DNA of 55,019 bases from a virus (taxonomy: Duplodnaviria > Caudoviricetes): positions 1-55,019 of the IMG/VR virus record IMGVR_UViG_3300046323_000133; one strand, written 5' to 3'. The notes below the pieces were generated by a model. The model ran no database searches. It was not told the DNA's origin and was given only the letters and a program-made list of their open reading frames with translations. Made by a program: the position numbers and the translations under genes. This document shows, one piece after another, positions 3,270-19,508 of the stretch; position 1 is the first letter of the stretch; each line of letters begins with the position of its first letter.

Positions 3270-3289
3270 TTGCAGATTTTATGCCGGTC
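3270..3289 (-). promoter_or_regulatory. sigma54-type -24/-12 promoter
   Basis: GACCGGCATAAAATCTGCAA (GG-N10-GC), intergenic; 19/20 identical to 14397-14416. Confidence 0.7.
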
Positions 3290-3326
3290 CAAATCGTTTA
3301 TTCTGTATTAGAATATGGAATATTGT

Positions 3327-3698
3327 TTAAGTTTTAAGCAAATGCCAAGCATTTTTGTACAGCAAGTATTTTTTAGTAGGTCTAAAAGCGTTTGTTTTAA
3401 TTAATTTGGATGGGATAATATAATAGTCTGAAGATTTATAGTCATAAAATACAAAAAAGTGTATAGTTTTTACCCATTTTGGATTGTAGTTTATAGTAAA
3501 AGTAGGATAGGCTATTCCTTTTTCAAAATAACGAGAAGATTTAACTTGTATTTTGAGTAGAGACTTACTATTATCGATTATAAAGTCATAAGGTACATTA
3601 TCTGAATGTGGAAAACATACAACTAGTCCGTGCTTACAGCATTCAGCTGCAAATAATAGCTCTGCACGTTCTCCAGATGACTTTGAGCTTAATTTCAT
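3327..3698 (-). CDS. PD-(D/E)XK homing-type endonuclease (PDDEXK_5 / I-Ssp6803I-like)
   Basis: SGERAE...PYDFII...KIQVKS. Confidence 0.8.
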   Translation of the reverse strand: MKLSSKSSGERAELLFAAECCKHGLVVCFPHSDNVPYDFIIDNSKSLLKIQVKSSRYFEKGIAYPTFTINYNPKWVKTIHFFVFYDYKSSDYYIIPSKLIKTNAFRPTKKYLLYKNAWHLLKT

Positions 3699-4435
3699 AA
3701 AGCCTTATACGCTTCTACGCAAATTTCTCCCATACCAGGTATAGTATTGTCTGCAGAACCGTTGTTATAATAGTTTAACATGTTTGGAATAGCTTTATCA
3801 TACTTTTTAAACAGTTTGGTAGCTATGTAAGAAGATATAGTTGGTAATTTACGCTTAGCAACTTGTAAATACGTTAAAGTTTTAACATCGGTATCCCAAG
3901 TATTTACTTTGTTTAGCCAAACTACGTCTAGTATATGAGCTAAATCTATAACTGTTAATACTGGGTATAAAATCCATAAATTAAATCCTCTAATCCAAAG
4001 TCCAATTTCATTTATACCAGGAATGTCAGGAGTCTTTGAAATCCAGCCGTCGCTCTCTAGCGTATTAAAATGCATAAGCTTATTATACTGCCAGCGCGCA
4101 CGCCAAATTTGCCATAATAAATCAGTTCGGTTCCACATAATCATAGAAGCTTGTAACATAGCTGATTGGTCTCTACTAAATGTTTCGTAGCGAGAGTACC
4201 ACTTAGTTGGGTCTGGATGTCGAACGTAAAATCCTTGGGGCAGTTCAATGGGACGCAACTTACGAATAGTTTCGGTGTATCCTACTAGAGTATCAGTGCC
4301 TAGAGCTGATAAGCAGGTATATAGTACGCCACAATTATGAGCATTATCTCCGGAGTCTCCACTTAGTGTTTTTAACATGCCATAATTGTCAAAAGTACTT
4401 TCTATATTTTCTACTAGCTGTTGTATATTACTCAT
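3695..4435 (-). CDS. Hypothetical protein (possibly an enzyme)
   Basis: 246-aa ORF with conserved-looking GDSGD, RHPDP..W and SRDQ segments; no family assigned. Confidence 0.7.
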   Translation of the reverse strand: MSNIQQLVENIESTFDNYGMLKTLSGDSGDNAHNCGVLYTCLSALGTDTLVGYTETIRKLRPIELPQGFYVRHPDPTKWYSRYETFSRDQSAMLQASMIMWNRTDLLWQIWRARWQYNKLMHFNTLESDGWISKTPDIPGINEIGLWIRGFNLWILYPVLTVIDLAHILDVVWLNKVNTWDTDVKTLTYLQVAKRKLPTISSYIATKLFKKYDKAIPNMLNYYNNGSADNTIPGMGEICVEAYKAL

Positions 4436-4911
4436 TATGTCTCCTGTGTAAATAGTAAATAAACTAAATGCGCCTCTTCTTCTGTTCCGTATGAGCCTAA
4501 ATAGTTATTGATTCTAACACCTTTGACTTGTATTCCAGCTTGGGCTACGTACCTGTTATACTTTGTTTTTAAGGTTCCTGGAAGTTTGCCTTCTCTATGT
4601 ACTTTGTAATTTTGATTATTTTCTCTGCAAGTAGCTTCTCTTAAGTTTTCTATTCTATTATCAGACTTGTTACCATTTATATGGTCTATTATAGAAGGCA
4701 TATATCCGTATACAAAATACCAAGCCATTCTGTGAGCTTTGTAGCTCTTATTTTTAAATTTTAATATAGTGTAACCGCTTCTTTTTTGAAAAGAGCCTGC
4801 TTTTGTTCCTATTGTACACCTAGAGTATACGCTAAATTTTTTTTGAAAAAAGAAGTTTCCACAACTCTCATTATAGTGTAAGTATTCTTTTATGTCTTCT
4901 AGTCCACTCAT
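4435..4911 (-). CDS. HNH homing endonuclease with AP2-like C-terminus
   Basis: YKAHRMAW...IDHINGNKSDNRIENLREAT..EN; YLGSYGTEEEA. Confidence 0.9.
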   Translation of the reverse strand: MSGLEDIKEYLHYNESCGNFFFQKKFSVYSRCTIGTKAGSFQKRSGYTILKFKNKSYKAHRMAWYFVYGYMPSIIDHINGNKSDNRIENLREATCRENNQNYKVHREGKLPGTLKTKYNRYVAQAGIQVKGVRINNYLGSYGTEEEAHLVYLLFTQET

Positions 4912-4913
4912 GT

Positions 4914-5198
4914 TTAAAATTTCTCCACTTTAACTGTTACTTTTTTGCCGTTCTTTAATACTTTTATGTAAGCTGTTTCTCCAAGGTCTACAGATATGTC
5001 TCTAATATATGTCAGTCCGTCGACAATTACAATATTTTTATGTGTATAGTCATAGCACCACAAAGTTTCATTTTTAATAATCATTTTGATACCTGTCCAA
5101 TAGGTCTTCAACACATCTTTTATAACCAAATATCTATAAATTATAGCAATTTTTACTTTGGTCCAAAAAGGAGTTTTAGATACGTAATAAATTTCCAT
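4914..5198 (-). CDS. Hypothetical protein
   Basis: AGGAG RBS. Confidence 0.6.
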   Translation of the reverse strand: MEIYYVSKTPFWTKVKIAIIYRYLVIKDVLKTYWTGIKMIIKNETLWCYDYTHKNIVIVDGLTYIRDISVDLGETAYIKVLKNGKKVTVKVEKF

Positions 5199-5211
5199 GT
5201 TGCTCCTAAAT

Positions 5212-5232
5212 AAAAAGGCCGCTTACGGCGGC
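5212..5232 (-). terminator. Rho-independent terminator after the PA14 lipoprotein gene
   Basis: GCCGC-CGTAA-GCGGC-CTTTTTATTT on the - strand. Confidence 0.65.
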
Positions 5233-5295
5233 TAGTCGTTAACATTACTAATTAAGCACGACTCGAACGTGTACACTGTAGCCCTGTTAAATAAC

Positions 5296-6024
5296 TTACA
5301 TATTAAATAATAAACTACCTGGAACGTCTTGTAAAGCACTAACTCCAGAGCTTGTTACACCTTGAATTTGTAGTTTTAAAGCAATTTGAGTTAACGGTCC
5401 TTGGTAGTACAAAATATTAATCTTGTTTAAGCCTTTATACAGTAAAGTAGGAGCAGAAGAGCCCCAAGTAGGAGGCTGCAATACATCCATGTTAATTAAA
5501 GTTACGCTATTAATTGCTAAACGTGCATTGTCATCAGATAACAGTTTAAAGTTATACATATTTGATACTGGAATGTTAATGTAGCCATCGCAGTCTAGAG
5601 CATAATCTTCTGTTCCAATTAAGGCTTGTTCTTGAGCTGTAAATTTAGGAAAGCCGTTTGCTGCTAAACTATCCCCTATGTTGAACAGTTCTATGACCTT
5701 GGTAAATTTTGGGGTAGCGGAAGCTAAAATGCTAATCAGGCCGTTGTTACGGTTTACAACATTTGAATCGTATACAGAGCACTTTAAGCCTTTTTGTAAT
5801 AATAGATTTTGACCAGGTGCCCCTGTGGCCCCTACATTTCCTTGAGCTCCAGTAGCTCCTGCTTGTCCATTTTGTACATAAGTAGTAGTGCCATCTTCAC
5901 ATTTAATAGCTGCTCCAGAACTGGTTTGAACTGTTGTACAGTTAGTTCCATTTTTGGGCGCATCTGTAAAAGTTGTACGAGCACAGCCTGTTAGTAGCAC
6001 AAGACCTAAGATGAACAGTTTCAT
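5296..6024 (-). CDS. Lipoprotein with a short collagen-like repeat and a PA14-like domain
   Basis: Lipobox LLTG-C; (GXY)7 GQAGATGAQGNVGATGAPGQN; PA14-like motifs YALDCDGYINIP, FKLLSDDNARLAIN, YYQG. Confidence 0.8.
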   Translation of the reverse strand: MKLFILGLVLLTGCARTTFTDAPKNGTNCTTVQTSSGAAIKCEDGTTTYVQNGQAGATGAQGNVGATGAPGQNLLLQKGLKCSVYDSNVVNRNNGLISILASATPKFTKVIELFNIGDSLAANGFPKFTAQEQALIGTEDYALDCDGYINIPVSNMYNFKLLSDDNARLAINSVTLINMDVLQPPTWGSSAPTLLYKGLNKINILYYQGPLTQIALKLQIQGVTSSGVSALQDVPGSLLFNM

Positions 6025-6062
6025 GAAATCTCCTTTGTTAGTTTAGTTTGTATACAGGTTAT

Positions 6063-6079
6063 AGCACATTGAGTGCCAA
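6063..6079 (-). promoter_or_regulatory. sigma54-type promoter
   Basis: TTGGCACTCAATGTGCT, about 40 nt upstream of ATG 6024, which has an AAGGAG RBS. Confidence 0.7.
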
Positions 6080-6705
6080 ATCTAAGTAAGTTATATGTCT
6101 TTTGAGCATGTAAATATGACCATAAATTGCACATTTGTATCGGTTTATATATACAGTGTGACTTTTAAACAACACTGCTTAAATAAATGTTAAAATTTGC
6201 CAGTCAGCTGTGTATACGTAGTGATACGATTCGCCTACGTCTATTAAGAACATGCCGTTTACCATGCAGGGTTGTCCGACCAAATCTTTTTTAGCGTTGT
6301 ATACGGAATAACAGAATTTTACTTTATTAATAGCCACCTTGTGTTGCTCCAAAGTATGTGAATAGGCAAAGTTGCATGTTAATCTCCTGTATGTAAATTA
6401 TGTATAAATGCTTAGAAAAGTCCTGCTAAAATGTACGCCGGATGCCAGAACAGTAAATCAATATCTCTAGTTAATAATCCTACTACAAAAATTAATGGAC
6501 ATGTAAATATGAAGGTTATTGTAGCGACTGTTAGTGTGTCTAGTACATAATACTTCATACTACTCCTTTAAACTGTTTCTAATTGTTATATCTACTGCTA
6601 AAACTATTGCGCAAGCTAAATTTATCAGAGCAGTTCCTTTGTCAATGTCTATTAAGAATAGTGCAAACCATAGATTAACTGCTAGTAATATGTATCGCCA
6701 ATACA

Positions 6706-7119
6706 TTATTCTTCCGTATCCATAGGTATGCTGATTTCTACTGTATCTATGAACTGTACTACTGTATACCCCAACTCTTTTAATTTTTTTATAATTAGTT
6801 TATGTGGCATAGGATACTCGATGATTCCGCCGTCTGTAATAACCTGCTTGATAATTTCTTGTACTTCTACAGCTTGTAAGGCTTCAATTTCTTTTATAGC
6901 TTGAGAAGCAGTTAACAGTTTGCTACTAGGTTTAGCAGTTTGAACTGTTGCTGGAGTAGCCTGCCAGGACTGTTCAATCTGTTGGATTTTTTCAGGTGTA
7001 ACTCTTTCTTCATTTATAAATGCTGCTATATCGTCATTGTTATATACGTACTGGTCAGCTTTTGCGCGTGTATCAAAGCTTGCTAAGACTATTCCGTTGT
7101 CATCATAAACTGTATACAT
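6706..7119 (-). CDS. Hypothetical protein
   Basis: AAGGAG RBS. Confidence 0.65.
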   Translation of the reverse strand: MYTVYDDNGIVLASFDTRAKADQYVYNNDDIAAFINEERVTPEKIQQIEQSWQATPATVQTAKPSSKLLTASQAIKEIEALQAVEVQEIIKQVITDGGIIEYPMPHKLIIKKLKELGYTVVQFIDTVEISIPMDTEE

Positions 7120-7139
7120 TAAAGCTCCTTTATTCTTAA

Positions 7140-7433
7140 TTACTTTTTGCTTAATTCTACTTCTAATTCTAATATACGCGCAGACAAAAGTCCAGTAATA
7201 TCTTTTATTCTCATTTTTCTAAATAATCTAGTTTTGTGAAAGCGAATAGTCTTGTCAGTAATATTTAAGGCTTTAGAAATATCCAAATTCTTTGCACCTT
7301 TGTACAACAGTTCTCTGACTTCAAATTCCCGTGGAGATATGAAATAGGGGCCGGGAGAATATCCAGGAGGTAATATTTGATACCTTGGTTTACTTTCTTT
7401 TACTTGAACTTTATTTATTCCTGTAGGCAACAT
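7140..7433 (-). CDS. Stand-alone LuxR/GerE-type HTH regulator
   Basis: ISPREFEVRELLYKGAKNLDISKALNITDKTIRFHKTRLFRKM. Confidence 0.85.
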   Translation of the reverse strand: MLPTGINKVQVKESKPRYQILPPGYSPGPYFISPREFEVRELLYKGAKNLDISKALNITDKTIRFHKTRLFRKMRIKDITGLLSARILELEVELSKK

Positions 7434-7666
7434 TAGTTTGAACCTTTTTCTGCGGCTTCACATGCTTTTAATAACTGTTGTGCATCATATATTGCTTGTT
7501 CTGAAAGTCTTTTTATATCAAATAGTACTGTTTCAGGATTTTCATCTCTTACTCTAAGATAGTGTAATAAGAACTGCGTACTTATATATTCTAACTTTGA
7601 CATACCTCTCTCGATGCCCATGCCAGTGCGACCTGGAAAAGCTTGCTTAGTTTTATTGTTACTCAT
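7433..7666 (-). CDS. Small phage protein with AFP...GMSKLEY motif
   Basis: QAFP..GMSKLEY..AIYDAQQLL resembles a common small phage protein type. Confidence 0.6.
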   Translation of the reverse strand: MSNNKTKQAFPGRTGMGIERGMSKLEYISTQFLLHYLRVRDENPETVLFDIKRLSEQAIYDAQQLLKACEAAEKGSN

Positions 7667-8304
7667 GTTAAGTCTCCTTGTTTATTCGGTATAAAGTCTT
7701 TGTATTGTTTTAATATTTCTTTAGCATATTTAATTTTATCAATAACTCTTTGTCCTGCCGGTTGGTATGAAGACCATAGTTCCAGATTTTCCAGCCTATT
7801 ATCAGTCCTGTCTCCATTAAGATGATGTACTGTTTCATATTTTTTTAAAGCTCTGTCTAAATATCTCATCATTATCAATCTATGTTCAGGTATAGAATAC
7901 CATCTAGACTTTGTCCTTCCAAATCTATTTAAATCGGCATCGGTCATTTTAACAATTTTATATCCATTATTATCTATAGTGTATCTATTTAAAGCCCTTA
8001 GTCTATGGCTCAATATTTTTACACCATTTCTTTTTAATAACATCTTTACGGCATTATAACTTATTTTATATCTATTAGCTATTTGCAATATGGTCTTGTT
8101 GCTATTATATTGTTCTATAATTTGTCTTTTAAATCTATCTGCTACATAGTTTGTATTTCTTGGTACACCATGTTTGGATAATATTCTACTTATAGTATCT
8201 CTACATACTTTATACTTCTTTGCTATTTTTTGTTGTGACATAAAGTTTTTATAGTCTTTTACTATTTTTCTCTCTGTATTATAGCCTATACCCGCAATAA
8301 TCAC
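7663..8304 (-). CDS. HNH endonuclease with tandem N-terminal HTH repeats
   Basis: Two IAxxYxxxxxxxxxxL repeats; EHRLIM...VHHLNGDRTDNRLENLELW. Confidence 0.85.
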   Translation of the reverse strand: MIIAGIGYNTERKIVKDYKNFMSQQKIAKKYKVCRDTISRILSKHGVPRNTNYVADRFKRQIIEQYNSNKTILQIANRYKISYNAVKMLLKRNGVKILSHRLRALNRYTIDNNGYKIVKMTDADLNRFGRTKSRWYSIPEHRLIMMRYLDRALKKYETVHHLNGDRTDNRLENLELWSSYQPAGQRVIDKIKYAKEILKQYKDFIPNKQGDLT

Positions 8305-8307
8305 GAT

Positions 8308-8508
8308 TCACTCCTTATTATTCTTATTACGTTTCCAGGCTGTAAAGTCTTTTAAGTTACCGTGCAGCCTTGACTCTTCAACTGTTTGTCCTGTAAATTT
8401 ATATGTCTTATGTTTAGAACGGCTATTACTTATCATACGTATACGCTGCTCTTTTGCTCTTACGGCTTCTGCTATGCTTCTATATTCTTTAGACATTATA
8501 TCCCCCAA
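8308..8508 (-). CDS. Hypothetical basic protein
   Basis: Operon packing. Confidence 0.5.
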   Translation of the reverse strand: MGDIMSKEYRSIAEAVRAKEQRIRMISNSRSKHKTYKFTGQTVEESRLHGNLKDFTAWKRNKNNKE

Positions 8509-8835
8509 TTAGTGTAAGTATGTATCGTACTCAGACGCCTTGTCAAGTTCTTCTAAGAATTCAGGGTCTGCATGTTTAGCTAAAAGCTTTTCTGCATTGT
8601 CTGAGAAAAAGTTGTCGATAGCGTCGTTAGCGGCTTCTATCATTTTAGCCTGTTGGTCGTGTGAGTAGTTACGCATATCTATTTCAAAGTCCATGCCAGA
8701 TTCGTCAATGCCTATTAGTCTTATATCATTAGCGATGAAGTCGTAGTCGGGACCTGGTAACTGTTCGACTTCTACTGTAAAATCTACAAAGGTGTCTGCG
8801 TCTATTTGTACTGAGTATGTTGTTTCGTCGTTCAT
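8509..8835 (-). CDS. Acidic hypothetical protein
   Basis: 108 aa, very Asp/Glu-rich, strong AAGGAG RBS. Confidence 0.7.
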   Translation of the reverse strand: MNDETTYSVQIDADTFVDFTVEVEQLPGPDYDFIANDIRLIGIDESGMDFEIDMRNYSHDQQAKMIEAANDAIDNFFSDNAEKLLAKHADPEFLEELDKASEYDTYLH

Positions 8836-8840
8836 AATCT

Positions 8841-8861
8841 CTCCTTGGTTAAAGGTACATA
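8841..8861 (-). repeat. 21-bp inverted repeat, left arm (contains the RBS of 8509..8835)
   Basis: Reverse complement TATGTACCTTTAACCAAGGAG is identical to 10621-10641. Confidence 0.9.
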
Positions 8862-8865
8862 AAGA

Positions 8866-8891
8866 AGGACTCAGACCTTGAGTCTTTTATT
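8866..8891. terminator. Hairpin; possible bidirectional terminator or attenuator
   Basis: GACTCA-GACCT-TGAGTC flanked by AAAGAAG and TTTTATT. Confidence 0.5.
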
Positions 8892-8967
8892 CATCCATGT
8901 TTATTAGTAGGCTAGCAGTAAAAATATTATTAGAATAATTATCATTGTCATGTTATATTTGTTATAT

Positions 8968-8984
8968 TGCATAGTTTGTGCCTG
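8968..8984 (-). promoter_or_regulatory. sigma54-type promoter
   Basis: CAGGCACAAACTATGCA (GG-N10-GC). Confidence 0.65.
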
Positions 8985-9105
8985 GGTTTTAGAGGCTATA
9001 AAGGACTTGAAGTACAGTAAGCGTTTAAGCTTTAAACACCTGTTAGCGTAAAATGTCACTTTTAGTTCTTAAAAAGCTACGTATTGTGTTGAGACGCTTA
9101 AGGTC

Positions 9106-9122
9106 TTGGCCTGTACTTTGCA
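9106..9122 (+). promoter_or_regulatory. sigma54-type motif, antisense to the local genes
   Basis: TTGGCCTGTACTTTGCA (GG-N10-GC). Confidence 0.5.
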
Positions 9123-9214
9123 TAATTAAATGGTGTGCCAGGTTTAAAAGACTAAACGTACCACAATGTAGTACAATCGTACCAAAGTTGTGAACGTAAG
9201 CGTACGCGACAGCG

Positions 9215-9231
9215 TGCAAGAAGTGTGCCTA
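9215..9231 (-). promoter_or_regulatory. sigma54-type promoter
   Basis: TAGGCACACTTCTTGCA, near consensus. Confidence 0.7.
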
Positions 9232-9254
9232 TTTACTAGCAGGTCTTTAAAGCT

Positions 9255-9271
9255 TGCAAGTTTAATGCCAG
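9255..9271 (-). promoter_or_regulatory. sigma54-type promoter
   Basis: CTGGCATTAAACTTGCA, near consensus. Confidence 0.7.
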
Positions 9272-9272
9272 T

Positions 9273-9974
9273 CTAATACTTCGCTTCTTTGTGTTTTAAA
9301 TTAACTGATAGTCCTAGGGGGCCTAACACGCTATTATAATACTCATGAGTACCTTTACAGTCTAAGCCTAGTAGGCCAAAGATTTCTAAGTCTTTAGGGC
9401 GTAGTTCGCCTTGAGGGCTTGTAACGTGCCAAAGCCAGCAGTGGTTTAGGATGCGTCTAATCTTGTTGTACGCCCAGTAATGGGACTTATAGAGCTGTAA
9501 CGGCTTAAAAGCGTTAGGTATTTCTACATTAGGATACAGTTTACAGAAGGCGGCTAAATCTCCAGTGTTCGCAAGGGCTGATATATCTCTGTATTCTGCT
9601 TGTTCTATGTAGCAGTTTAATAAAAATAAACAGTTAGTGTACGACTTACCGTACTTGTGCCTAGCTGCTCTTGAATTCATGTAGTAATTTATATAGGTTT
9701 GAACGTAACTGATAGCCTCTGAAGGGTCGTGCTGGTACTCAAAGGACTTAAAGTTCTTAGTGCCACGTAAAAAAGGCGAAGAAAGTCCAGGCAGACAGTC
9801 CGAAAAGGACTCAATGTCAGCATGTCCCGATTTTTGCAATTTAAGTTGCCACTCACGAAATATCTTATTAACTTGCTCAAGTGTGTATCCAGGGGGTATG
9901 TAGTACCCAGCGCCTTCATAGTGCGTTCTAGCTCCTGAAACGGTCGAATTAGGTTGTTTTTGTCTTTTAGCCAT
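9273..9974 (-). CDS. Hypothetical protein, possible regulator; probably leaderless
   Basis: 233 aa; sigma70 promoter ends 6 nt before the ATG; no SD sequence. Confidence 0.7.
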   Translation of the reverse strand: MAKRQKQPNSTVSGARTHYEGAGYYIPPGYTLEQVNKIFREWQLKLQKSGHADIESFSDCLPGLSSPFLRGTKNFKSFEYQHDPSEAISYVQTYINYYMNSRAARHKYGKSYTNCLFLLNCYIEQAEYRDISALANTGDLAAFCKLYPNVEIPNAFKPLQLYKSHYWAYNKIRRILNHCWLWHVTSPQGELRPKDLEIFGLLGLDCKGTHEYYNSVLGPLGLSVNLKHKEAKY

Positions 9975-9980
9975 GTAGTA

Positions 9981-10009
9981 AGCATAGCAGCTGTATATTT
10001 GATAGTCAA
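9981..10009 (-). promoter_or_regulatory. sigma70-type promoter
   Basis: TTGACT-17-TATGCT with extended -10 TG. Confidence 0.65.
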
Positions 10010-10012
10010 GTG

Positions 10013-10192
10013 TTAATTAAATAGTTCTGCTCTATCTATTAATAATCTAGCTAAATCTTGGTTGATTTGAACTACTTTCTGGTTTAATTTAGTATATAGT
10101 CTATTATGAACTATATACACTTTTAGTCCATATCTATTATAGATAAGTCCTTTATCATATTTTTTAAACTTATAGCTGTAATTAAATAACAT
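10013..10192 (-). CDS. Small hypothetical protein (59 aa, below track cutoff)
   Basis: MLFNYSYKFKKYDKGL...AELFN; TAATG coupling to the upstream ORF. Confidence 0.55.
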   Translation of the reverse strand: MLFNYSYKFKKYDKGLIYNRYGLKVYIVHNRLYTKLNQKVVQINQDLARLLIDRAELFN

Positions 10193-10356
10193 TATGCAGC
10201 CTTTATATTATTTAATTGAGCTGTTAATAACTCTATAATCAAATCTTTAATATTAGCTCTTTGGTTTAGTAGTTCTAGTCTTTCAACATTGTTATCACAT
10301 TTCAACAGTAACTGGGCATTTATACTTAACTCTCTTTGTAAGATAACTATGCACAT
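10192..10356 (-). CDS. Small hypothetical protein (54 aa, below track cutoff)
   Basis: AAAGGAG RBS; MCIVILQRELS...NIKAA. Confidence 0.55.
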   Translation of the reverse strand: MCIVILQRELSINAQLLLKCDNNVERLELLNQRANIKDLIIELLTAQLNNIKAA

Positions 10357-10450
10357 GCTAACTCCTTTATAAGCTATACATTAACTGAGTGGTTATCTAG
10401 TCTGGAAAGAAAAGTATCGACTCAATTGTTGTATATTATATATATATAGC

Positions 10451-10467
10451 TGCAATAGCTTTGCCAG
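10451..10467 (-). promoter_or_regulatory. sigma54-type promoter heading the leftward arm
   Basis: CTGGCAAAGCTATTGCA. Confidence 0.7.
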
Positions 10468-10586
10468 GTTATGAGCAGTATATGCCATTTAACAGCTTAA
10501 ACCAGTAAACAGTAACAATTTACGGCACACAGCGGTTAAAGCTTATACATGTAAGGACTGTCTAAAGGTCTAGGTTGCTGATGAAG

Positions 10587-10603
10587 TAGGTATGTAGTGT
10601 GCA
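10587..10603 (+). promoter_or_regulatory. sigma54-type promoter heading the rightward arm
   Basis: TAGGTATGTAGTGTGCA (GG-N10-GC), 45 nt before ATG 10647. Confidence 0.55.
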
Positions 10604-10620
10604 ATAGTATTAATAGAGAC

Positions 10621-10641
10621 TATGTACCTTTAACCAAGGAG
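10621..10641 (+). repeat. 21-bp inverted repeat, right arm (contains the RBS of the SLT gene)
   Basis: TATGTACCTTTAACCAAGGAG. Confidence 0.9.
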
Positions 10642-10646
10642 TTCAC

Positions 10647-11195
10647 ATGAAAAGACTTATATTAGCTGCTTTTACAATATGGATATTAATAGTTATTATA
10701 GTATTAGACAAGGTTAACGAGACTTCTAAACTTGGGCCTATTAAAGACTATGTAGAAACTGTCAATGGAGACGGAACTGGTTCTATAGAATTTATAGATA
10801 AGGTAGCTCCAAAGTACAAGCTATTAAACAGATATATAGATGAGGCGGCTATAAAGCATAATGTAGACCCTAGCTTGCTTAACTGTATATTCCATGTAGA
10901 ATCTACGCATACTTTAGATGCTGTAAGTAAAACTGGAGACTATGGTATTGGTCAAATAAATATACGCTCTTGGAAGAAGTTTAGTCCAGATAGGCTATTA
11001 ACAGACCTCCAGTACTCCATAAACGCTTCAGCAGAGGTTCTAAGTTTCTATAAACAATTAGCAGCACAAGACGAGCCAACAACATGGCCTTGTCGCTATA
11101 ACGTTGGAGGCGCTTCATTAACTAAAGGAACTGTTGGGGCGCGCTGCGTCCATTACATGTCCAAATTGAACAGTTGTTTGCAATCTAAAAACTAA
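10647..11195 (+). CDS. Lytic transglycosylase (SLT domain) with N-terminal membrane anchor
   Basis: IDEAAIKHNVDPSLL..IFHVES, GDYGIGQIN, RYN motifs; hydrophobic residues 4-21. Confidence 0.85.
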   Translation: MKRLILAAFTIWILIVIIVLDKVNETSKLGPIKDYVETVNGDGTGSIEFIDKVAPKYKLLNRYIDEAAIKHNVDPSLLNCIFHVESTHTLDAVSKTGDYGIGQINIRSWKKFSPDRLLTDLQYSINASAEVLSFYKQLAAQDEPTTWPCRYNVGGASLTKGTVGARCVHYMSKLNSCLQSKN

Positions 11196-11196
11196 T

Positions 11197-11628
11197 TGTG
11201 CCGGACCTACTGGCGCAGTGTGCCACTTTAAAAAACGAAGTGGCGCACCACTATCCTTAATGATATCATATACTTGGAAGCCCGTGCGCCAGTGTGCCAC
11301 TAAAAAGACACTTCAGACGCCATTTTCGTATATGGCTATGTGCCCAAATCTACCACAATAGAACTGACACTCAGCTCGCATATACTCGTTTTAAGAAAAA
11401 ATATTTTCCGGATTGTCAAAACACTGGCACACTGGCACACTTTGATTATAACTGTTATATAATATATAAAAGAGAATATAGAAGACTTAATAGTACTAAA
11501 AGTCCTAAATACCTAATATTGTTAACTAAATACCAAATTACTAAAAGTGGCGCAATAGTGGCGCACGGACTGGCACACTGGCACACGGAAGGGCTTAAAG
11601 TGCGCCAGCGACTCCAAATAGTGTGCCG
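11197..11628. repeat. TGGCRCA heptamer array around an AT-rich core; candidate replication origin or regulatory array
   Basis: 12 perfect copies at 11211, 11219, 11241, 11285, 11293, 11425, 11433, 11548, 11559, 11571, 11579 and 11601, plus 3 near copies, in both orientations; AT-rich segment 11441-11546. Confidence 0.85.
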
Positions 11629-11731
11629 GTCCATTAGTTTAGTGCGACAATAAAATAGTGACGTTTTAGGCTGACACTCGACTACTTCTTAAACAGTTTA
11701 CCCGACCCAAATAGAGTATAAATGAACTAAA

Positions 11732-11748
11732 CTGGCCTGCAAAGTGCA
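11732..11748 (+). promoter_or_regulatory. sigma54-type promoter
   Basis: CTGGCCTGCAAAGTGCA upstream of the 11860 operon. Confidence 0.6.
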
Positions 11749-11859
11749 TCAAGTCTTATACTTACTTAAACACTGCATAAACTTTACTTATGTTAAGTAT
11801 TAAAGAAGCTTAATCGGGTCTACAAAGATTAACCGATTTACAAACTAAAAAGGACTAAC

Positions 11860-12081
11860 ATGATTACAAAACAGTTCTACATCAATCAGTTCACAGGTTA
11901 CGCACAAGAAGTAACTGGGTTGTCCTTAGACGAGTTGGAGTCCTTAGTTGGCCGTTACAAGCGTAATAGTATCAGAGAAGGACAATTGAGAGGCGAGCTG
12001 CTTATTTTTGTGGACAATTCAATTAAAATCCGTCATGCTTTTACTAAGAAAGTCCTTTGGACAGGAGAGATTTATGAGTAA
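11860..12081 (+). CDS. Hypothetical protein
   Basis: AAGGA RBS. Confidence 0.65.
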   Translation: MITKQFYINQFTGYAQEVTGLSLDELESLVGRYKRNSIREGQLRGELLIFVDNSIKIRHAFTKKVLWTGEIYE

Positions 12082-12451
12082 TTTAAAGCAACCTAAATTT
12101 AAATTTGGCGATAAACTAATCCTACCTGAAAGCAGAAGAGGGCCTCCACATAACTCTTTACCCTATTTTGAAGTGCTCAATATAAAATATGCTGATATAT
12201 TTGATGCATATGTGTACATAGGAATTGATAATCGCAACTATATATATGAATCAGATGCAGAACTATTTGTAGAGCCGCCCCGTACTAAAAAAGTCTACCA
12301 GTTTATTTACAAAACAGATGGACGGCCTCCTTTAATGGGGGATAGACTATGCGACAATCAAGAACAATTTAGAGAATACTTGCTTGAGTTTAATAACGTA
12401 TCTACTATAGAATATATTGAAATTGCAAACACTTTTGAAGTACCGGAGTAG
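12074..12451 (+). CDS. Hypothetical protein
   Basis: Start adjusted to ATG 12074 (AGGAG RBS). Confidence 0.65.
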   Translation: MSNLKQPKFKFGDKLILPESRRGPPHNSLPYFEVLNIKYADIFDAYVYIGIDNRNYIYESDAELFVEPPRTKKVYQFIYKTDGRPPLMGDRLCDNQEQFREYLLEFNNVSTIEYIEIANTFEVPE

Positions 12452-12453
12452 GT

Positions 12454-12711
12454 ATGCAAGACTCTATTCATCAACAAAACGAAGAGTTGAAACTCTTAAG
12501 AAAGTATATAGCTAGCCTAGAAACAAGAATTACTATACTACTAGAAGGATTAGATAATGTATATAAAGAAACACACAAAGCCCGACTAGCCTTCATCGAA
12601 CCTATAGCTAAAGAGGATTGTAAGCATGAGCCAATCGAAAGCGTAATGATAGGACACATTTGCATGTACTGCGGAGTTAAACTGCAAGCCACATGGACGG
12701 AGAAGAAATGA
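12454..12711 (+). CDS. Coiled-coil and Zn-ribbon-like hypothetical protein
   Basis: CKHE...CMYCG. Confidence 0.6.
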   Translation: MQDSIHQQNEELKLLRKYIASLETRITILLEGLDNVYKETHKARLAFIEPIAKEDCKHEPIESVMIGHICMYCGVKLQATWTEKK

Positions 12712-13073
12712 TTAAAGCAAAAGAGCTTTGGGTAACAACAGACTTAACAGAAGTTGCATTTTCTGATGGAAAAAAAGCAGGATTAGCTTTCATTGAAAAA
12801 CACGAAGACGAGGACTGTTTTAAAGTCATTGAATTTTCGGCTTATGAACAGCTTAAAGATGAGCACGAAAAAATACTTGCTGAGAATATGTATGGGCTTA
12901 TTAATCAAATTAAACTTAGGGATGTTGAACTTGAAAAGCTTAAAAAGGATAATGAAATACTTATTGAGACTCTGAAGGAATACAAAGGAATCAAAGTTAA
13001 GAAATACAAAATGTTTCCTGATGAGCTTTTTGATTTAGCAGATGAAGCGTTAAATAAAATAGGTGAGTCGTGA
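12708..13073 (+). CDS. Hypothetical protein
   Basis: ATGA overlap, GGAG RBS. Confidence 0.6.
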   Translation: MIKAKELWVTTDLTEVAFSDGKKAGLAFIEKHEDEDCFKVIEFSAYEQLKDEHEKILAENMYGLINQIKLRDVELEKLKKDNEILIETLKEYKGIKVKKYKMFPDELFDLADEALNKIGES

Positions 13074-13206
13074 AAGTAAAAGATTGGTTATTGCTTCCAT
13101 TCATGAATCCTTTATTTTTTATTATTACTTTTCTTTTAATATGTATTTTATTTAGATTGGATATTTTTAATGAGACGCTTTAAAAACAAAATAGGAGTTA
13201 TATAAC

Positions 13207-13398
13207 ATGAAAGTATACATAGTACATTTAGAAACAGAAGATTACGATGATTATTATAGAGTTTTTAAAAACAAACCTACTGCTAAACAAATATCAAGTT
13301 TTAAGAAAGAAGTATATAAAAAATACTATTCGTCCGAATCGGAAGATGGCTTACTATACATTAAAAATATATTAGAAGAAGAAGTTGTGGAGAACTAG
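13207..13398 (+). CDS. Hypothetical protein
   Basis: AGGAG RBS. Confidence 0.6.
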   Translation: MKVYIVHLETEDYDDYYRVFKNKPTAKQISSFKKEVYKKYYSSESEDGLLYIKNILEEEVVEN

Positions 13399-13401
13399 TA
13401 C

Positions 13402-13605
13402 ATGCAAACAATAATCCTCCTTCTAGCACTAAAAGGTACTACCACCTTCAATAAAATGGACATAGCCTGCAAAGACATTACGGCTACTTGGTCCTCCTCC
13501 ACTCAACATGGCATACGTACTGGTAATACTGAGTACACTAGCATCTTTGACACATATGAAGCTTTGATGTCCGAGTTAAAAAAACATTGTCCAAGGTACT
13601 TTTAA
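13402..13605 (+). CDS. Hypothetical protein
   Basis: GGAG RBS. Confidence 0.55.
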   Translation: MQTIILLLALKGTTTFNKMDIACKDITATWSSSTQHGIRTGNTEYTSIFDTYEALMSELKKHCPRYF

Positions 13606-13625
13606 TCTATAAACAAGGAGCACAC

Positions 13626-13772
13626 ATGAGCCGCTACTTATTTTTCTCAATAATACTCGCAATTTGTTCTTTTATGTATTACAATACAGGAACCAGCAAT
13701 GGTGGATTTTTAGGATTACTCATATTTACCAGCCTAGCTGGCATATTAGAGCATATTTTTGAGTACACTTAA
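13626..13772 (+). CDS. Small two-TM membrane protein
   Basis: AAGGAG RBS; two hydrophobic segments. Confidence 0.55.
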   Translation: MSRYLFFSIILAICSFMYYNTGTSNGGFLGLLIFTSLAGILEHIFEYT

Positions 13773-13813
13773 TACTATTTGGACCGGCGTAAAATTTTAA
13801 AAAGGAATAAGGA

Positions 13814-14050
13814 ATGAATGATTTTTTAGCTGTAGCCTACATGTTTATTCAAATTGCTGGCACATGTGCTATTACGCACTACTGGCACGACGTCAGAAAA
13901 GACAGAAAGACCATCTCAATTTTAGACATTTTTATAATACTATTATTTCCACTAGTTCCGTTAGTTATGTTAGTACTATTTATAGGTATTATAATATTTA
14001 AAATATGTAAACCAGTATTAGATATAGAACTGTTTAAGCTTGACAAGTAA
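13814..14050 (+). CDS. Small membrane protein
   Basis: Long hydrophobic stretch; AAGGA RBS. Confidence 0.6.
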   Translation: MNDFLAVAYMFIQIAGTCAITHYWHDVRKDRKTISILDIFIILLFPLVPLVMLVLFIGIIIFKICKPVLDIELFKLDK

Positions 14051-14068
14051 AGTAAACTGTGGTATGAT
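14040..14068 (+). promoter_or_regulatory. sigma70-type promoter
   Basis: TTGACA-17-TATGAT with extended -10 TG. Confidence 0.7.
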
Positions 14069-14102
14069 AAATACCGGCTTACATTTTAAAAAAGAAAGAA
14101 AC

Positions 14103-14327
14103 ATGATTAAATTTATAATACTAACAGCACTAACAGCTTTACTACTACTATCAGGCAATTTACGAGCTTCAAATCTCGGATGTATCATAGAAGACCGCAT
14201 ATTATACACTGTAACCGAGAACGATGGAAACATAGTTGTGGCGCGCAATAAAGACAGTAAGAACATAGAATTGGTTATAATTAGACAGTTAAAAGACGTC
14301 TTAATAATAGACTGCTTAGCAAAGTAA
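14103..14327 (+). CDS. Small exported protein
   Basis: MIKFIILTALTALLLLSGNLRA signal peptide; flanked by its own promoter and terminator. Confidence 0.6.
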   Translation: MIKFIILTALTALLLLSGNLRASNLGCIIEDRILYTVTENDGNIVVARNKDSKNIELVIIRQLKDVLIIDCLAK

Positions 14328-14363
14328 CAATTTACGCTAACATTTGACTGAAACTTACACACT

Positions 14364-14386
14364 AACGGACCCTCAAGTCCGTTTTT
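14364..14386 (+). terminator. Rho-independent terminator
   Basis: AACGGAC-CCTCAA-GTCCGTT-TTT. Confidence 0.7.
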
Positions 14387-14396
14387 AGCGTTTTAA

Positions 14397-14416
14397 GACC
14401 GGCATAAAGTCTGCAA
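14397..14416 (+). promoter_or_regulatory. sigma54-type promoter for the replication operon
   Basis: GACCGGCATAAAGTCTGCAA; predicted +1 near 14426, GGAGG at 14430, ATG at 14439. Confidence 0.75.
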
Positions 14417-14438
14417 TAATTTAAAATATGGAGGACAT

Positions 14439-15041
14439 ATGATTATAAATGCCACTTTAATAAGTTCACTAAATGCTTGTTCAGACCGATATGATAATTA
14501 CGTATTACATTATGGTACAACAGACTATGACGTCGATACTTTTTTAGACTTAGACAATATTACTTATCAAGATAAAATATGGGTGTTAAGACGCATTATG
14601 AACGCCACACAAGCTAGAATTTTTGCAATTCTATGTGCGGATAGCGTTTTGCCTATTTTTGAATCTAAGTATCCTAATGATTACAGAGTAAGAAACTGTC
14701 TTAACTTCTTAAAATCTATAAAAGATTTAGGAAACTTAACAGAAGAAGAAAAGACTGAGCTAAAATTTCAAAGAAAAGCTGCTGCTGCTACTTACTCTGC
14801 TGATGCTGCTACTTACTCTGCTGCTGCTGCTTATGCTGATGCTGCTACTTACTCTGCTGCTGCTGCTGCTACTTACTCTGCTGCTGATGCTGCTACTTAC
14901 TCTGCTGCTGCTGCTGCTACTTACTCTGCTGCTGCTGCTGCTACTTACTCTGCTGCTGCTGCTTATGCTGCTTATGCTGATGCTAAAATACAGCAACAAA
15001 ATTTAAACTTAGAATACTTAAAACAAGCAATGAGTATTTAA
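14439..15041 (+). CDS. Imm5-like protein with Ala-rich tandem repeats
   Basis: FAILCADSVLPIFESKYPNDYRVRNCL followed by AAATYSAA repeats. Confidence 0.65.
   Translation: MIINATLISSLNACSDRYDNYVLHYGTTDYDVDTFLDLDNITYQDKIWVLRRIMNATQARIFAILCADSVLPIFESKYPNDYRVRNCLNFLKSIKDLGNLTEEEKTELKFQRKAAAATYSADAATYSAAAAYADAATYSAAAAATYSAADAATYSAAAAATYSAAAAATYSAAAAYAAYADAKIQQQNLNLEYLKQAMSI
14778..14984. repeat. Low-complexity tandem repeat: GCT runs with ACTTACTCT or TATGCT spacers
   Basis: Seven GCTACTTACTCTGCT units separated by variable GCT/GAT triplets. Confidence 0.9.
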
Positions 15042-15872
15042 ATGTACAAAACACAACTAGAACACATATTCCAAAATGAACAGTTTATATTTACTGGGGA
15101 CGAATATTACTTACTACCTATAGACCGTTCAGCTTTCTTCTGCATTAATCCTGTTAAAAATTTAGACAATCGTCAATTAGAAAACTTATCAAACTTACAG
15201 AACTTCCTCATAGAATTTGACGAAGCATCTTATGAACAACAGTTCAAATCTATTGCGCAAATAGAAGCTTCTGGATTAAATATTGCTAGTGCAGTATTTT
15301 CAGGTTCTAAAAGTATACACCTAATATTTAGCATGGCCGAAACTCTTCAATTAGATTATAAGACAGCTTGGTTAGCCCTAGCCTCAGAAGTTCGCAGTAT
15401 AACAGGACTAACAGCAGACGCACAATGTAAAAATGCAAATAGGCTTAGCAGACTTGCAGGATTTGTGCGCCCAGATACTGGAAAAGTTCAAGAGCTGCTG
15501 CACCTTGGAGGCTTCATCAAGAATGATAAACTAATGGAATTAGTGGACCGGCATAAAATTAAGCACGCTGTAACTCAAACAACAGTTAGCCAAGACCCTA
15601 CCATGAGCGTTGAGAAGTTTGAATTAATACTAATAAAGAGGCAAAACGGACTCTACTCAAAAATAGCTAGAGTAGACGAATGGGCAGGAAGTGTAGGAAT
15701 GTATAAAGAACTATTTAACATTACCTGCTGGGCTATAGACGCTACAGGAGTTCCAGAAAGTACCTTCAAACAGTTTGCGCAAAATAAAATATTTCCTGCG
15801 CTATTAGAAGCCGGTTACCCAATAAACAAACTTGACAAGCCTATTGATAATGCTTACACTTATAAAACATAA
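15042..15872 (+). CDS. AEP-superfamily primase / primase-polymerase
   Basis: FLIEFD, FSGSKSIH, DAQCKNANRLSRLAG; adjacent to the helicase gene. Confidence 0.75.
   Translation: MYKTQLEHIFQNEQFIFTGDEYYLLPIDRSAFFCINPVKNLDNRQLENLSNLQNFLIEFDEASYEQQFKSIAQIEASGLNIASAVFSGSKSIHLIFSMAETLQLDYKTAWLALASEVRSITGLTADAQCKNANRLSRLAGFVRPDTGKVQELLHLGGFIKNDKLMELVDRHKIKHAVTQTTVSQDPTMSVEKFELILIKRQNGLYSKIARVDEWAGSVGMYKELFNITCWAIDATGVPESTFKQFAQNKIFPALLEAGYPINKLDKPIDNAYTYKT
15832..15860 (+). promoter_or_regulatory. sigma70-type promoter upstream of the helicase gene
   Basis: TTGACA-17-TACACT. Confidence 0.5.
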
Positions 15873-15884
15873 ACAAGGGGCAAC

Positions 15885-18127: not shown

Positions 18128-18258
18128 ATGACTGAAGAACAAATCAAAATAATTATTGGCAATATTATATATGAAAGCATGTTAAAATTTGGTATTGATA
18201 AAATGGACCAAGTTTCAGAGATAGTCTACGCAGAACTTAAGAGTAAAGATTTAATATA

Positions 18259-18854: not shown

Positions 18855-18856
18855 AT

Positions 18857-19489: not shown

Positions 19490-19508
19490 TATAAATAGGA
19501 GCCATACA

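What the first reader, a model, noticed from the sequence alone, without database searches (positions are those of the whole stretch)
3270..14416. Apparent sigma54 (RpoN) regulon with no recognisable phage-encoded enhancer-binding protein
Seen: ten intergenic GG-N10-GC motifs at 3270(-), 6063(-), 8968(-), 9106(+), 9215(-), 9255(-), 10451(-), 10587(+), 11732(+) and 14397(+). Most resemble the consensus YTGGCAC-N5-TTGCW, nine of ten point in the direction of the local genes, and several sit at a suitable distance from an RBS and ATG. They head both arms, the replication operon and the gene run leading to terL/portal/MCP. Established: sigma54 holoenzyme needs an AAA+ bEBP with a GAFTGA loop, and I saw no ORF with one. 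Inference: the phage either ties its programme to a host bEBP or host state, or encodes a non-canonical sigma54 activator.
Basis: partly seen in the sequence, partly recalled or inferred. Interest (0 to 1): 0.85.

Follow-up and report, generated by a model that had tools for sequence, protein, structure and literature searches.

The report
Phage operons behind sigma-54-type promoters
An uncultured 55-kb freshwater phage puts most of its operons behind DNA signals that look like promoters for the bacterial sigma-54 RNA polymerase, yet it carries no gene for the ATPase that normally switches such promoters on, so it probably depends on a host regulator or an unknown factor of its own.

Summary
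All ten GG-N10-GC sites exist. GGCA-N7-TGCA is the dyad most enriched in non-coding DNA of the window in an unbiased scan, only the sigma-54 spacing is enriched, and six sites match the published consensus TGGCAC-N5-TTGCW where shuffled non-coding DNA gives 0.34.

One syntenic relative (50-90% protein identity) keeps sites before the same genes and has five tandem copies after the same orphan gene.

New here:
- A conserved ~26-nt element lies 76-78 nt upstream of the GG at four window promoters and four in the relative.
- Two orthologous promoters keep GC-N13-ATG, which predicts a near-leaderless mRNA.
- The 233-aa orphan beside the cluster belongs to a large unannotated helix-turn-helix family. 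The family also occurs in relatives that lack the motif and is absent from 120 unrelated viral loci with sigma-54-like tandem sites, so it is unlikely to be the general reader of the motif.

No sigma-54 activator, AAA domain or GAFTGA loop is encoded, and none in 37 other array-bearing viral records.

Host, transcripts and rpoN dependence remain untested.

Phage YuA is a published precedent. Earlier notes of this scan report sigma-54-type sites and arrays on many other phage contigs.

The parts
3270..3287 (-). Core -24/-12-type site (CCGGCAT-N5-CTGCAA) before the 70-aa gene that opens the run to the ClpP-like protease, terminase, portal and capsid genes. 13 nt separate the GC from the ATG and there is no SD, so the mRNA is predicted to be near-leaderless.
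   Evidence: orthologous site G001 39830- has the same GC-N13-ATG
6062..6079 (-). Core site TTGGCAC-N5-GTGCTA before the PA14/collagen lipoprotein gene (5296-6024). Predicted leader of 28 nt with AAGGAG.
   Evidence: ortholog G001 42236- differs at one base of the 18-nt window, same distance
8967..8984 (-). Core site CAGGCAC-N5-ATGCAA upstream of the 108-aa gene (8509-8835). A terminator-like hairpin (8868-8884) lies in the predicted 122-nt leader.
   Evidence: aligns with G001 45885-
9106..9123 (+). Core site TTGGCCT-N5-TTGCAT. It is the only one pointing against the local genes and faces the tandem minus-strand sites.
   Evidence: plus-strand sites also in the G001 control region at 46030+ and 46261+
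9214..9231 (-). Core site TAGGCAC-N5-TTGCAC, second of two co-oriented sites 40 nt apart after the 233-aa gene.
9254..9271 (-). Core site CTGGCAT-N5-TTGCAA, immediately after the stop codon of the 233-aa gene.
   Evidence: G001 has five co-oriented copies here, 30-40 nt apart
10450..10467 (-). Core site CTGGCAA-N5-TTGCAG heading the leftward arm from the divergent region.
10587..10604 (+). Weak core site TAGGTAT-N5-GTGCAA heading the rightward arm (SLT transglycosylase gene 10647-11195). Predicted leader of 33 nt with AAGGAG.
   Evidence: G001 50048+ (CTGGCACG-N4-CTGCTA) before the orthologous SLT gene
11732..11749 (+). Core site CTGGCCT-N5-GTGCAT before the small-gene block that starts at 11860.
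   Evidence: G001 51023+
14399..14416 (+). Core site CCGGCAT-N5-CTGCAA before the replication operon (14439 onward: primase, DUF5906 primase/helicase, PDDEXK exonuclease, PolA). Its core is near-identical to the 3270 site.
   Evidence: G001 54948+
9034..9059 (-). Conserved upstream element (13-mer GTGACATTTTACG plus about 13 nt), 77 nt upstream of the GG of the 8982- site and co-oriented with it.
10512..10537 (+). Conserved upstream element (GTAACAATTTACG...), 77 nt upstream of the GG of the 10589+ site.
11658..11683 (+). Variant upstream element (GTGACGTTTTAGGCTGACACTCGACT), 76 nt upstream of the GG of the 11734+ site.
14324..14349 (+). Conserved upstream element (GTAACAATTTACGCTAACATTTGACT), 77 nt upstream of the GG of the 14401+ site.
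   Evidence: the G001 54871+ copy differs at one base of the 26
14365..14387 (+). Hairpin ACGGAC-N6-GTCCGT followed by a T run, between the upstream element and the core site. It is terminator-like but falls below the tool's T-run threshold.
   Evidence: read; the stem arms are identical in G001, the 6-nt loop differs at two bases; not listed
9273..9974 (-). 233-aa orphan gene (P0001) in the middle of the site cluster, a member of a large unannotated phage helix-turn-helix family. It is a candidate phage regulator and is not shown to act on these sites.
9981..10009 (-). Sigma-70-like promoter TTGACT-17-TATGCT with TG, ending 6 nt before the ATG of the 233-aa gene (leaderless, no SD).

Best explanation
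The ten sites are promoters of the -24/-12 class, read by the host RNA polymerase carrying sigma-54 (RpoN). They start most transcription units of the phage:
- both arms of the divergent control region;
- the small-gene block at 11860;
- the replication operon;
- the PA14 lipoprotein cassette;
- the long run that ends in the packaging and capsid genes.

At least four of them are built as modules. A conserved ~26-nt element sits 76-78 nt upstream of the GG, about -101 from the predicted start, which is where sigma-54 enhancers usually lie.

The phage has no AAA+ activator of its own. Open-complex formation therefore has to come from a host enhancer-binding protein, possibly bound at the upstream element, or from a phage factor of an unknown kind.

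A few sigma-70-like promoters also exist: before the 233-aa gene, at 14040+, and after the capsid gene. Entry into the programme therefore need not depend on sigma-54.

Shown here: the motif, its enrichment, its spacing specificity, its conservation at orthologous positions, the module architecture, and the absence of a bEBP.
For: 1. Enrichment and spacing specificity in the window.

2. Independent test on the relative G001 (55.6 kb; proteins 29-91% identical where matched, most 50-90%; syntenic). A weight matrix built only from the ten window sites finds its best G001 hits before the orthologous genes, at matching distances: the 70-aa gene, the PA14 gene, the SLT gene, the 108-aa gene and the replication operon. 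It also finds five tandem copies after the orthologue of the 233-aa gene. GGC-N8-TGCA occurs 13 times in G001 against 0 for the backwards control.

3. The same motif recurs where the neighbouring phage protein has diverged to 33% identity or less:
- L134;
- G007, 34 copies against 1 for the control;
- G008, 23 against 3.
Many of these copies are full matches to TGGCACG-N4-TTGC. A constant site beside fast-diverging phage proteins fits a conserved host reader.

4. Geometry:
- GC-N13-ATG without an SD is conserved at 3285- and G001 39830-, which puts the start about 12 nt after the GC.
- The other sites leave leaders of 13-33 nt that contain the SD.

5. The upstream element sits at a fixed 76-78 nt, co-oriented, at four window promoters and four G001 promoters plus one degenerate copy. 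All 3 window matches of the 13-mer (0.28 expected) lie exactly 77 nt upstream of a site.

7. Precedent: development of Pseudomonas phage YuA is described as strictly dependent on host sigma-54 (passage in PMC5053324), with a sigma-54-like YuA promoter seen by ONT-cappable-seq (passage in PMC10914365).

8. The consensus TGGCAC-N5-7-TTGCT is taken from passages of PMC12316311.
Against: - There is no direct evidence that sigma-54 binds or that transcripts start here. The host is unknown, so I could not even check that it has rpoN.
- Four of the ten sites have 3-4 mismatches to the strict consensus. 10587 has GGT instead of GGC.
- Co-oriented copies 26-40 nt apart (window, G001, G008) cannot all be occupied by polymerase at once. 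Together with the site pointing against the genes (9108+), they suggest that some copies do something other than start an mRNA.
- At G007 37484- the predicted start falls downstream of the SD of the gene it precedes.
- The upstream element is built of two direct repeats (my reading), whereas the NtrC-type enhancer sites I recall are inverted repeats.
- Among eight MCP relatives of at least 49 kb, five (G002-G006) and largely G009 lack the dispersed motif. The trait is therefore lineage-specific, which would also fit a phage-encoded reader.
- The sigma-70 consensus scan is not informative either way: 95 hits against 80.6 +/- 9.7.
Confidence: 0.6

Rival explanations
1. A phage-encoded DNA-binding or sigma-like factor reads the motif and recruits host core or sigma-70 polymerase. 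On this view the likeness to sigma-54 promoters is convergent. The best candidate is the sigma-70-driven 233-aa helix-turn-helix orphan at 9273-9974; the GerE/LuxR protein at 7140-7433 is another.
For: - The 233-aa gene sits in the middle of the cluster and is directly followed by tandem sites in the window, in G001, in L134 (33% identical homologue) and in G008. In G007 the array lies just upstream of the homologue.
- It has its own sigma-70-like leaderless promoter.
- Its middle part resembles sigma region 4 and transposase helix-turn-helix domains: PDB profile search E 0.0011 and 0.034, and an EGxxYRxI signature.
- TGGCA and TTGCA are direct repeats one helical turn apart, a layout that dimeric DNA-binding proteins also use (inference).
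- The motif is present in only some lineages of the phage group.
Against: - Double dissociation. The family is a core early gene in 9 of the 10 related genomes, including the motif-poor G003-G006. It is absent at E <= 1e-3 from 120 unrelated viral loci (983 kb) that carry tandem sigma-54-like pairs.
- The motif stays the same while the protein drops to 16-34% identity.
- No known sigma-70-family factor uses a 5-nt gap between its two promoter elements (own knowledge).
- No structural or family match makes the protein a sigma factor.
Confidence: 0.2
2. Sigma-54 holoenzyme does bind, but many sites, above all the tandem and face-to-face copies in 8960-9275, are not promoters. They would act as docking, sponge or roadblock sites that hold closed complexes, for example to sequester sigma-54 polymerase or to block read-through. 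Only a minority would start mRNAs.
For: - Co-oriented copies lie 40 nt apart in the window, 30-40 nt in G001 and 26 nt in G008. Opposed copies occur in the same gene-free stretch.
- Sigma-54 holoenzyme forms stable closed complexes without an activator, and binds widely inside genes in E. coli (abstract of PMC4591121 as shown in a search listing).
- Tandem pairs are common in viral contigs.
- No activator gene is found in this phage or in 37 other array-bearing viral records.
Against: - The dispersed sites (3285-, 6077-, 10465-, 10589+, 11734+, 14401+) each sit singly before the first gene of a unit, in the right orientation, at promoter-like and conserved distances.
- Four sites (three of these dispersed ones and 8982- in the cluster) carry a fixed-distance upstream element. 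That fits initiation better than docking.
Confidence: 0.13
3. The resemblance is a chance property of non-coding DNA and the sites have no function.
For: Loose whole-window counts are only marginally above shuffles.
Against: - De novo top ranking.
- Spacing specificity.
- Shuffles of the non-coding DNA.
- Conservation at orthologous positions in diverged intergenic DNA.
Confidence: 0.02

Closest known systems
Sigma-54-dependent transcription of Pseudomonas aeruginosa phage YuA (Ceyssens et al. 2008, J Bacteriol 190:1429). I could not read this paper; I saw it only as cited in passages of PMC5053324 and PMC10914365.
   Same: A virulent tailed phage whose programme uses host sigma-54 together with sigma-70. 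Sigma-54-like promoter regions lie on the phage genome.
   Different: - YuA has a cultured host and experimental support (promoter trap, rpoN dependence, cappable-seq). Here nothing is tested.
- In the passage I read, one YuA promoter is called sigma-54-like. Here about ten sites head most units.
- I saw no report for YuA of tandem arrays or of a fixed-distance upstream element. I could not see the original paper or any supplements.
Bacterial enhancer-dependent sigma-54 promoters. The consensus TGGCAC-N5-7-TTGCT and the need for an AAA+ bEBP are as described in PMC12316311 (passages) and in the abstract of PMC7057263 as shown in a search listing. Examples such as glnAp2 and pspA are recalled.
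   Same: - GG and GC one helical turn apart with the same flanking bases.
- A start predicted about 12 nt after the GC.
- A conserved element about 100 nt upstream of the start.
   Different: - The sites are on a phage.
- No cognate activator gene lies nearby.
- The upstream element looks like two direct repeats.
- Some copies are tandem at 26-40 nt or opposed, which I do not know from bacterial promoters.
Htm (Gp204) of Mosigvirus AV110, a phage AAA+ protein structurally similar to bEBPs but lacking GAFTGA (bioRxiv 10.64898/2026.10.06.757011, passages read).
   Same: It raises the idea that phages carry their own non-canonical modulators of sigma-54 polymerase.
   Different: - Htm is an AAA+ protein. 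This phage has no AAA domain at all.
- The link between Htm and sigma-54 is itself only a hypothesis of its authors.

Membership tests
Sigma-54 (-24/-12) promoters | Invariant GG and GC dinucleotides separated by 10 nt, within TGGCAC-N5-TTGCW | tested here: met
   All ten sites have GG-N10-GC. Six have 2 mismatches or fewer to the consensus and four have 3-4. Only this spacing is enriched.
Sigma-54 (-24/-12) promoters | Located upstream of transcription units, in the direction of the genes, more often than chance | tested here: met
   Ten of ten lie in non-coding DNA and nine of ten point with the genes. Positions are conserved before orthologous genes in G001.
Sigma-54 (-24/-12) promoters | Transcription starts about 12 nt downstream of the GC | not testable with these tools
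   No RNA run holds the phage. The only support is indirect: GC-N13-ATG without an SD, conserved in two phages.
Sigma-54 (-24/-12) promoters | Activity depends on rpoN, and the host encodes sigma-54 | not testable with these tools
   - The host is unknown.
- MCP relatives sit in MAG bins of many phyla, which points to binning noise.
- The phage itself has no Sigma54_DBD.
Sigma-54 (-24/-12) promoters | Needs an AAA+ enhancer-binding protein with a GAFTGA loop, usually bound about 80-150 nt upstream | tested here: inconclusive
   - No such protein is encoded by the phage.
- A conserved element lies at about -101 at four window promoters.
- What binds that element is unknown.
Sigma-70-family sigma factors (as an identity for the 233-aa protein) | Regions 2 and 4 detectable by profile or fold | tested here: not met
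   - No Pfam or PHROG family for P0001 or eight homologues. Among 106 family members, Pfam gave only scattered weak hits (6 Recombinase, single HTH domains) and PHROGs 2 single hits.
- The fold search has no match at E <= 0.001; the model has pLDDT 62.
- There is only a weak region-4-like helix-turn-helix match, E 0.034.

The most novel reading that the evidence does not exclude
The phage activates sigma-54 polymerase without any AAA+ ATPase. In this reading a phage protein binds the conserved element 77 nt upstream of each core site and converts the closed sigma-54 complex into an open one, so the phage owns a private, ATPase-independent switch for a polymerase form that host genes cannot use without a bEBP. 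The sigma-70-driven 233-aa helix-turn-helix orphan, with its subfamily-specific HCWLWH/NGEL C-terminal part, is the obvious candidate. The tandem copies after its gene would then load polymerase for that switch.
Probability: 0.07. Interest if true: 0.95.

Novelty: new variant of a known kind. Interest (0 to 1): 0.6.

Why it matters
Sigma-54 polymerase cannot start transcription without an ATP-driven activator. A lytic phage that puts replication, packaging and accessory operons behind such promoters therefore hands its timing to a host signalling protein, or has found another way to open the complex. Either would be an unusual way for a phage to sense host state.

The published precedent I could find is a single cultured phage, YuA. 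Here the promoter class covers most of the genome, comes with a fixed-distance upstream element, and belongs to a pattern (sigma-54-like tandem sites without any phage bEBP) that my scans found in at least 120 viral stretches.

The system is small and gives clear targets for testing:
- about ten core sites;
- four upstream elements;
- one orphan regulator candidate.

Tried and rejected
- **Host identification.** It failed.
  - No DNA match and no MCP protein match in 50,697 phage records. The best annotated PolA match is a Flavobacterium phage at 36%.
  - SD use of 52-78% in the ten related genomes argues against a Bacteroidota-type host (the link between SD use and Bacteroidota is recalled).
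  - MCP relatives in GTDB genomes sit in MAG bins of unrelated phyla. Only distant copies (41% and 35%) lie in long bacterial contigs.
  - No tRNA genes.
- **Expression.** No RNA holder is listed for window 5000-14900. The ten holders are on record as freshwater or freshwater-sediment DNA runs, four of them holding only small shares.
- **Rfam.** No family at gathering score in the whole window.
- **233-aa protein.**
  - No Pfam or PHROG match. The Atlas gave no usable feature hit and only TM scores of 0.33 or less.
  - AlphaFold model: pLDDT 62, pTM 0.51. The PDB fold search had no match at E <= 0.001.
  - Binding to sigma-54 was tried with E. coli sigma-54 as a stand-in. The job gave no verdict: no support, and no evidence against.
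- **A gene shared only by motif-bearing relatives.** BLASTP of window proteins against nine relatives found none.
- **Dispersed lineage-specific motifs in the motif-poor relatives.** Their top dyads are a 23-bp iteron array (G003) and palindromic operators in one control region (G004), not dispersed promoters.
- **A simple shared 7-9-mer or palindrome upstream of every promoter.** Only the element at -77 held up, and only for about half of the promoters.
- **Reaching more relatives of the helix-turn-helix family with the search for related loci.** A2 found only G001 in viral contigs and one contig, L134, in metagenome contigs.
- **Literature.** Three searches on sigma-54 and phages turned up no report of phage sigma-54 regulons or site arrays beyond YuA and the Htm preprint. 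Ceyssens 2008 (PMC2238194) is not held. Supplements were not opened. The supplementary tables of PMC12316311 (seed matrix) and of PMC10914365 (YuA TSS list) may bear on the consensus and on the comparison with YuA.

Full report
**What the window is.** The window is a complete IMG/VR virus record of 55,019 bp with direct terminal repeats and about 34-35% G+C.
- Genes run leftward from 10356 to 1 and, across the record ends, on through the terminase (51964-54492), portal, capsid and tail genes down to 24347.
- Genes run rightward from 10647 to 24366: SLT transglycosylase, small genes, primase, DUF5906 primase/helicase, PDDEXK exonuclease and PolA.
- No cultured phage is close.

**The observation.** All ten sites exist and all lie outside ORFs of 60 aa or more.
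- GGC-N8-TGCA occurs nine times. Six copies lie in the 7.4% of the window that my ORF call leaves non-coding, and two more lie in the doubtful small ORFs of 8836-9272.
- I ranked every 4-mer/gap/4-mer dyad by non-coding enrichment, with no prior motif. GGCA-N7-TGCA came first: 6 of 6 copies non-coding, p 1e-6.
- Varying the spacer from 3 to 14 nt shows a peak only at 8: 9 copies against 0-4.
- With the literature consensus TGGCAC-N5-TTGCW (2 mismatches or fewer, GG and GC kept) there are 12 sites, 6 of them in the 9.9% non-coding DNA. 300 dinucleotide shuffles of that DNA give 0.34 +/- 0.57, maximum 2.
- Nine of ten sites point with the genes.

**Conservation in the close relative.** One syntenic relative, G001 (55,571 bp), shares most genes at 50-90% protein identity, while its intergenic DNA has diverged.
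- A weight matrix made only from the ten window sites puts its best G001 hits before the orthologues of the 70-aa gene, the PA14 gene, the SLT gene, the 108-aa gene and the replication operon.
- The GC-to-start-codon distances are equal for the 70-aa and PA14 genes: 13 and 13 nt, 39 and 39 nt.
- G001 has 13 GGC-N8-TGCA copies against 0 for the backwards control.
- Five co-oriented copies lie 30-40 nt apart right after the orthologue of the 233-aa gene. The window has two copies there, 40 nt apart.

**Wider relatives.** The capsid protein has 160 relatives in viral contigs. I scanned ten of their records, eight of them at least 49 kb long.
- G007 (34 copies against 1 for the control) and G008 (23 against 3) carry the motif, again with dense clusters in a control region.
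- G002-G006 are at background, and G009 has only a few good sites.
- Motif-poor relatives show ordinary sigma-70-type promoters, for example TTGACA-17-TATAAT in G003.

**No activator.**
- Profile searches of the window and G001 for Sigma54_activat, Sigma54_activ_2 and AAA gave no match at E <= 1, while the control genomes matched.
- There is no Sigma54_DBD in the window.
- There is no GAFTGA-like or ELFGH-like peptide in six frames.
- Of the 80 listed loci from the tandem-pair scan (120 stretches in all), I searched the records behind 37, those whose contigs are longer than the fetched locus (about 17 kb or more). None has Sigma54_activat; 10 of the 37 are at least 90% complete.

**New architecture.**
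- The 13-mer GTRACAWTTTACG has three matches in the window (0.28 expected). Each lies exactly 77 nt upstream of the GG of a site and is co-oriented with it (8982-, 10589+, 14401+).
- The conserved stretch is about 26 nt long and reads as two direct repeats.
- A variant sits 76 nt before 11734+.
- G001 has the element 77-78 nt before 45885-, 54948+, 45539- and 51023+, and once before a degenerate core.
- The DNA between the element and the core differs among modules, so the distance itself seems to be kept.
- This places the element at about -101, the usual range of sigma-54 enhancers (own knowledge).
- At 14401+ a conserved hairpin with a T run lies between the element and the core.
- At 3285- and G001 39830- the ATG follows the GC by 13 nt with no SD, which predicts a 2-nt leader if transcription starts 12 nt after the GC.

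**The 233-aa orphan.**
- It has a sigma-70-like promoter that ends 6 nt before its ATG.
- It has 14 close homologues without any annotation.
- One 33%-identical homologue lies on contig L134 and is also followed by three tandem sites, with more sites before neighbouring genes.
- Profiles link it to homologues next to the arrays of G007 (hhalign probability 92%) and G008. They also link it to genes in G003-G006 and G009.
- A profile of 12 members finds 2,443 clusters at E <= 1e-3 among 1.84 billion representatives.
- The shared features are an N-terminal WYxKLxxxGFxDIE signature and a helix-turn-helix of the EGxxYRxI kind. The helix-turn-helix weakly matches a Mutator transposase (E 0.0011) and sigma-H region 4 (E 0.034) in the PDB.
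- Pfam and PHROGs do not hold the family.
- The family is present in 9 of the 10 related genomes whether or not they have the motif. It is absent at E <= 1e-3 from 120 unrelated viral loci (983 kb) with tandem sigma-54-like pairs; three hits at 0.004 appear to be one protein on three related contigs.
- This double dissociation argues against the family as the general reader of the motif. A special role of the window's own subfamily is not excluded.

**Generality.** Earlier notes of this scan describe sigma-54-type promoters and site arrays on many other phage contigs, and one first-reader note covers the G001 array itself. These are unchecked AI notes. The parts I tested (the G001 array, the recurrence of arrays, the 21-bp inverted repeat) held.

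**Reading.** The constant motif across strongly diverged phages, its exact sigma-54 spacing and core bases, the promoter-like placement and the enhancer-like upstream element make host sigma-54 polymerase the most likely reader (0.6).
- A phage-encoded reader is the main rival (0.2).
- A docking or roadblock role for the tandem and opposed copies is a partial rival (0.13). It could hold together with promoter function at the single sites.
- Who activates is open: a host bEBP, possibly at the -77 element, or an unknown phage factor.
- A complex prediction of the orphan with E. coli sigma-54 gave no verdict.

**Comparison and novelty.** Use of sigma-54 by a phage is called rare but not unprecedented, with YuA as the example (passage in PMC5053324), and a sigma-54-like YuA promoter was seen by cappable-seq (passage in PMC10914365). 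I found no paper on phage-wide sigma-54 regulons, on tandem site arrays or on fixed-distance upstream elements in phages. I file this as a new variant of a known kind. Membership in the class of sigma-54 promoters is met for sequence, spacing and placement. It is untestable here for start site and rpoN dependence.

Noticed in passing
window 11197-11650: Array of TGGCRCA heptamers: 12 of the window's 21 copies lie within 500 nt (5.8 expected in the whole window). They occur as 8-nt tandem pairs and inverted pairs flanking an AT-rich core. The array looks like an iteron origin or a regulator array. None of the nine relatives has such an array (at most 3 copies per 500 nt).
   Followed up: partly
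window 10621-10641 (+) and 8841-8861 (-): A perfect 21-bp inverted repeat (TATGTACCTTTAACCAAGGAG) contains the SD of the first gene on each side of the 1.8-kb control segment. I confirmed that the two copies are identical.
   Followed up: partly
window 18447-18854 (+): A 135-aa protein matches the N-terminal domain of dATP/dGTP diphosphohydrolase (PF18909, E 1.2e-19). From recall, this family is associated with phage DNA base-modification pathways. I did not look for a PurZ-like partner.
   Followed up: no
window 7140-7433 (-): A 97-aa protein has a GerE/LuxR helix-turn-helix (PF00196, E 4.6e-14). It is a second candidate phage regulator, with homologues in G001, G005 and G009.
   Followed up: no
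window 47431-47572 (-): After the capsid gene comes a strong terminator-like hairpin, then TTGACA-19-TGgTATAAT ending 5 nt before the next ATG. This would be a second sigma-70-like promoter giving a leaderless mRNA, like the one before the 233-aa gene.
   Followed up: no
window 8868-8884 (-): A terminator-like hairpin lies inside the predicted 122-nt leader between the 8982- site and the 108-aa gene, so this promoter may make a short RNA or be attenuated. No Rfam family matches.
   Followed up: partly
window 14425-14442 (+): A four-codon ORF (ATG GAG GAC ATA TGA) starts 13 nt after the GC of the 14401+ site, and its stop overlaps the ATG of the 200-aa gene. The same GC-N13-ATG distance occurs in G001 at 54948+.
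   Followed up: no
G008 (L102, L104) 1-126 and 56982-57270: The terminal repeat of this relative holds at least five perfect 26-bp tandem units, each with a full TTGGCATGAACCTTGCAG site. Three opposed TTGGCACGCTTCTTGCA copies lie next to them.
   Followed up: partly
G003 (L110) 47575-47706: Six tandem 23-bp repeats lie directly downstream of this relative's member of the helix-turn-helix family. The layout (gene followed by an array) is the same as in the window, but the repeat sequence is different.
   Followed up: no
window 4435-4911 (-) and 7663-8304 (-): Two HNH endonuclease genes are absent from G001 at these places. They are probably mobile homing endonucleases inserted in the early region.
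   Followed up: no
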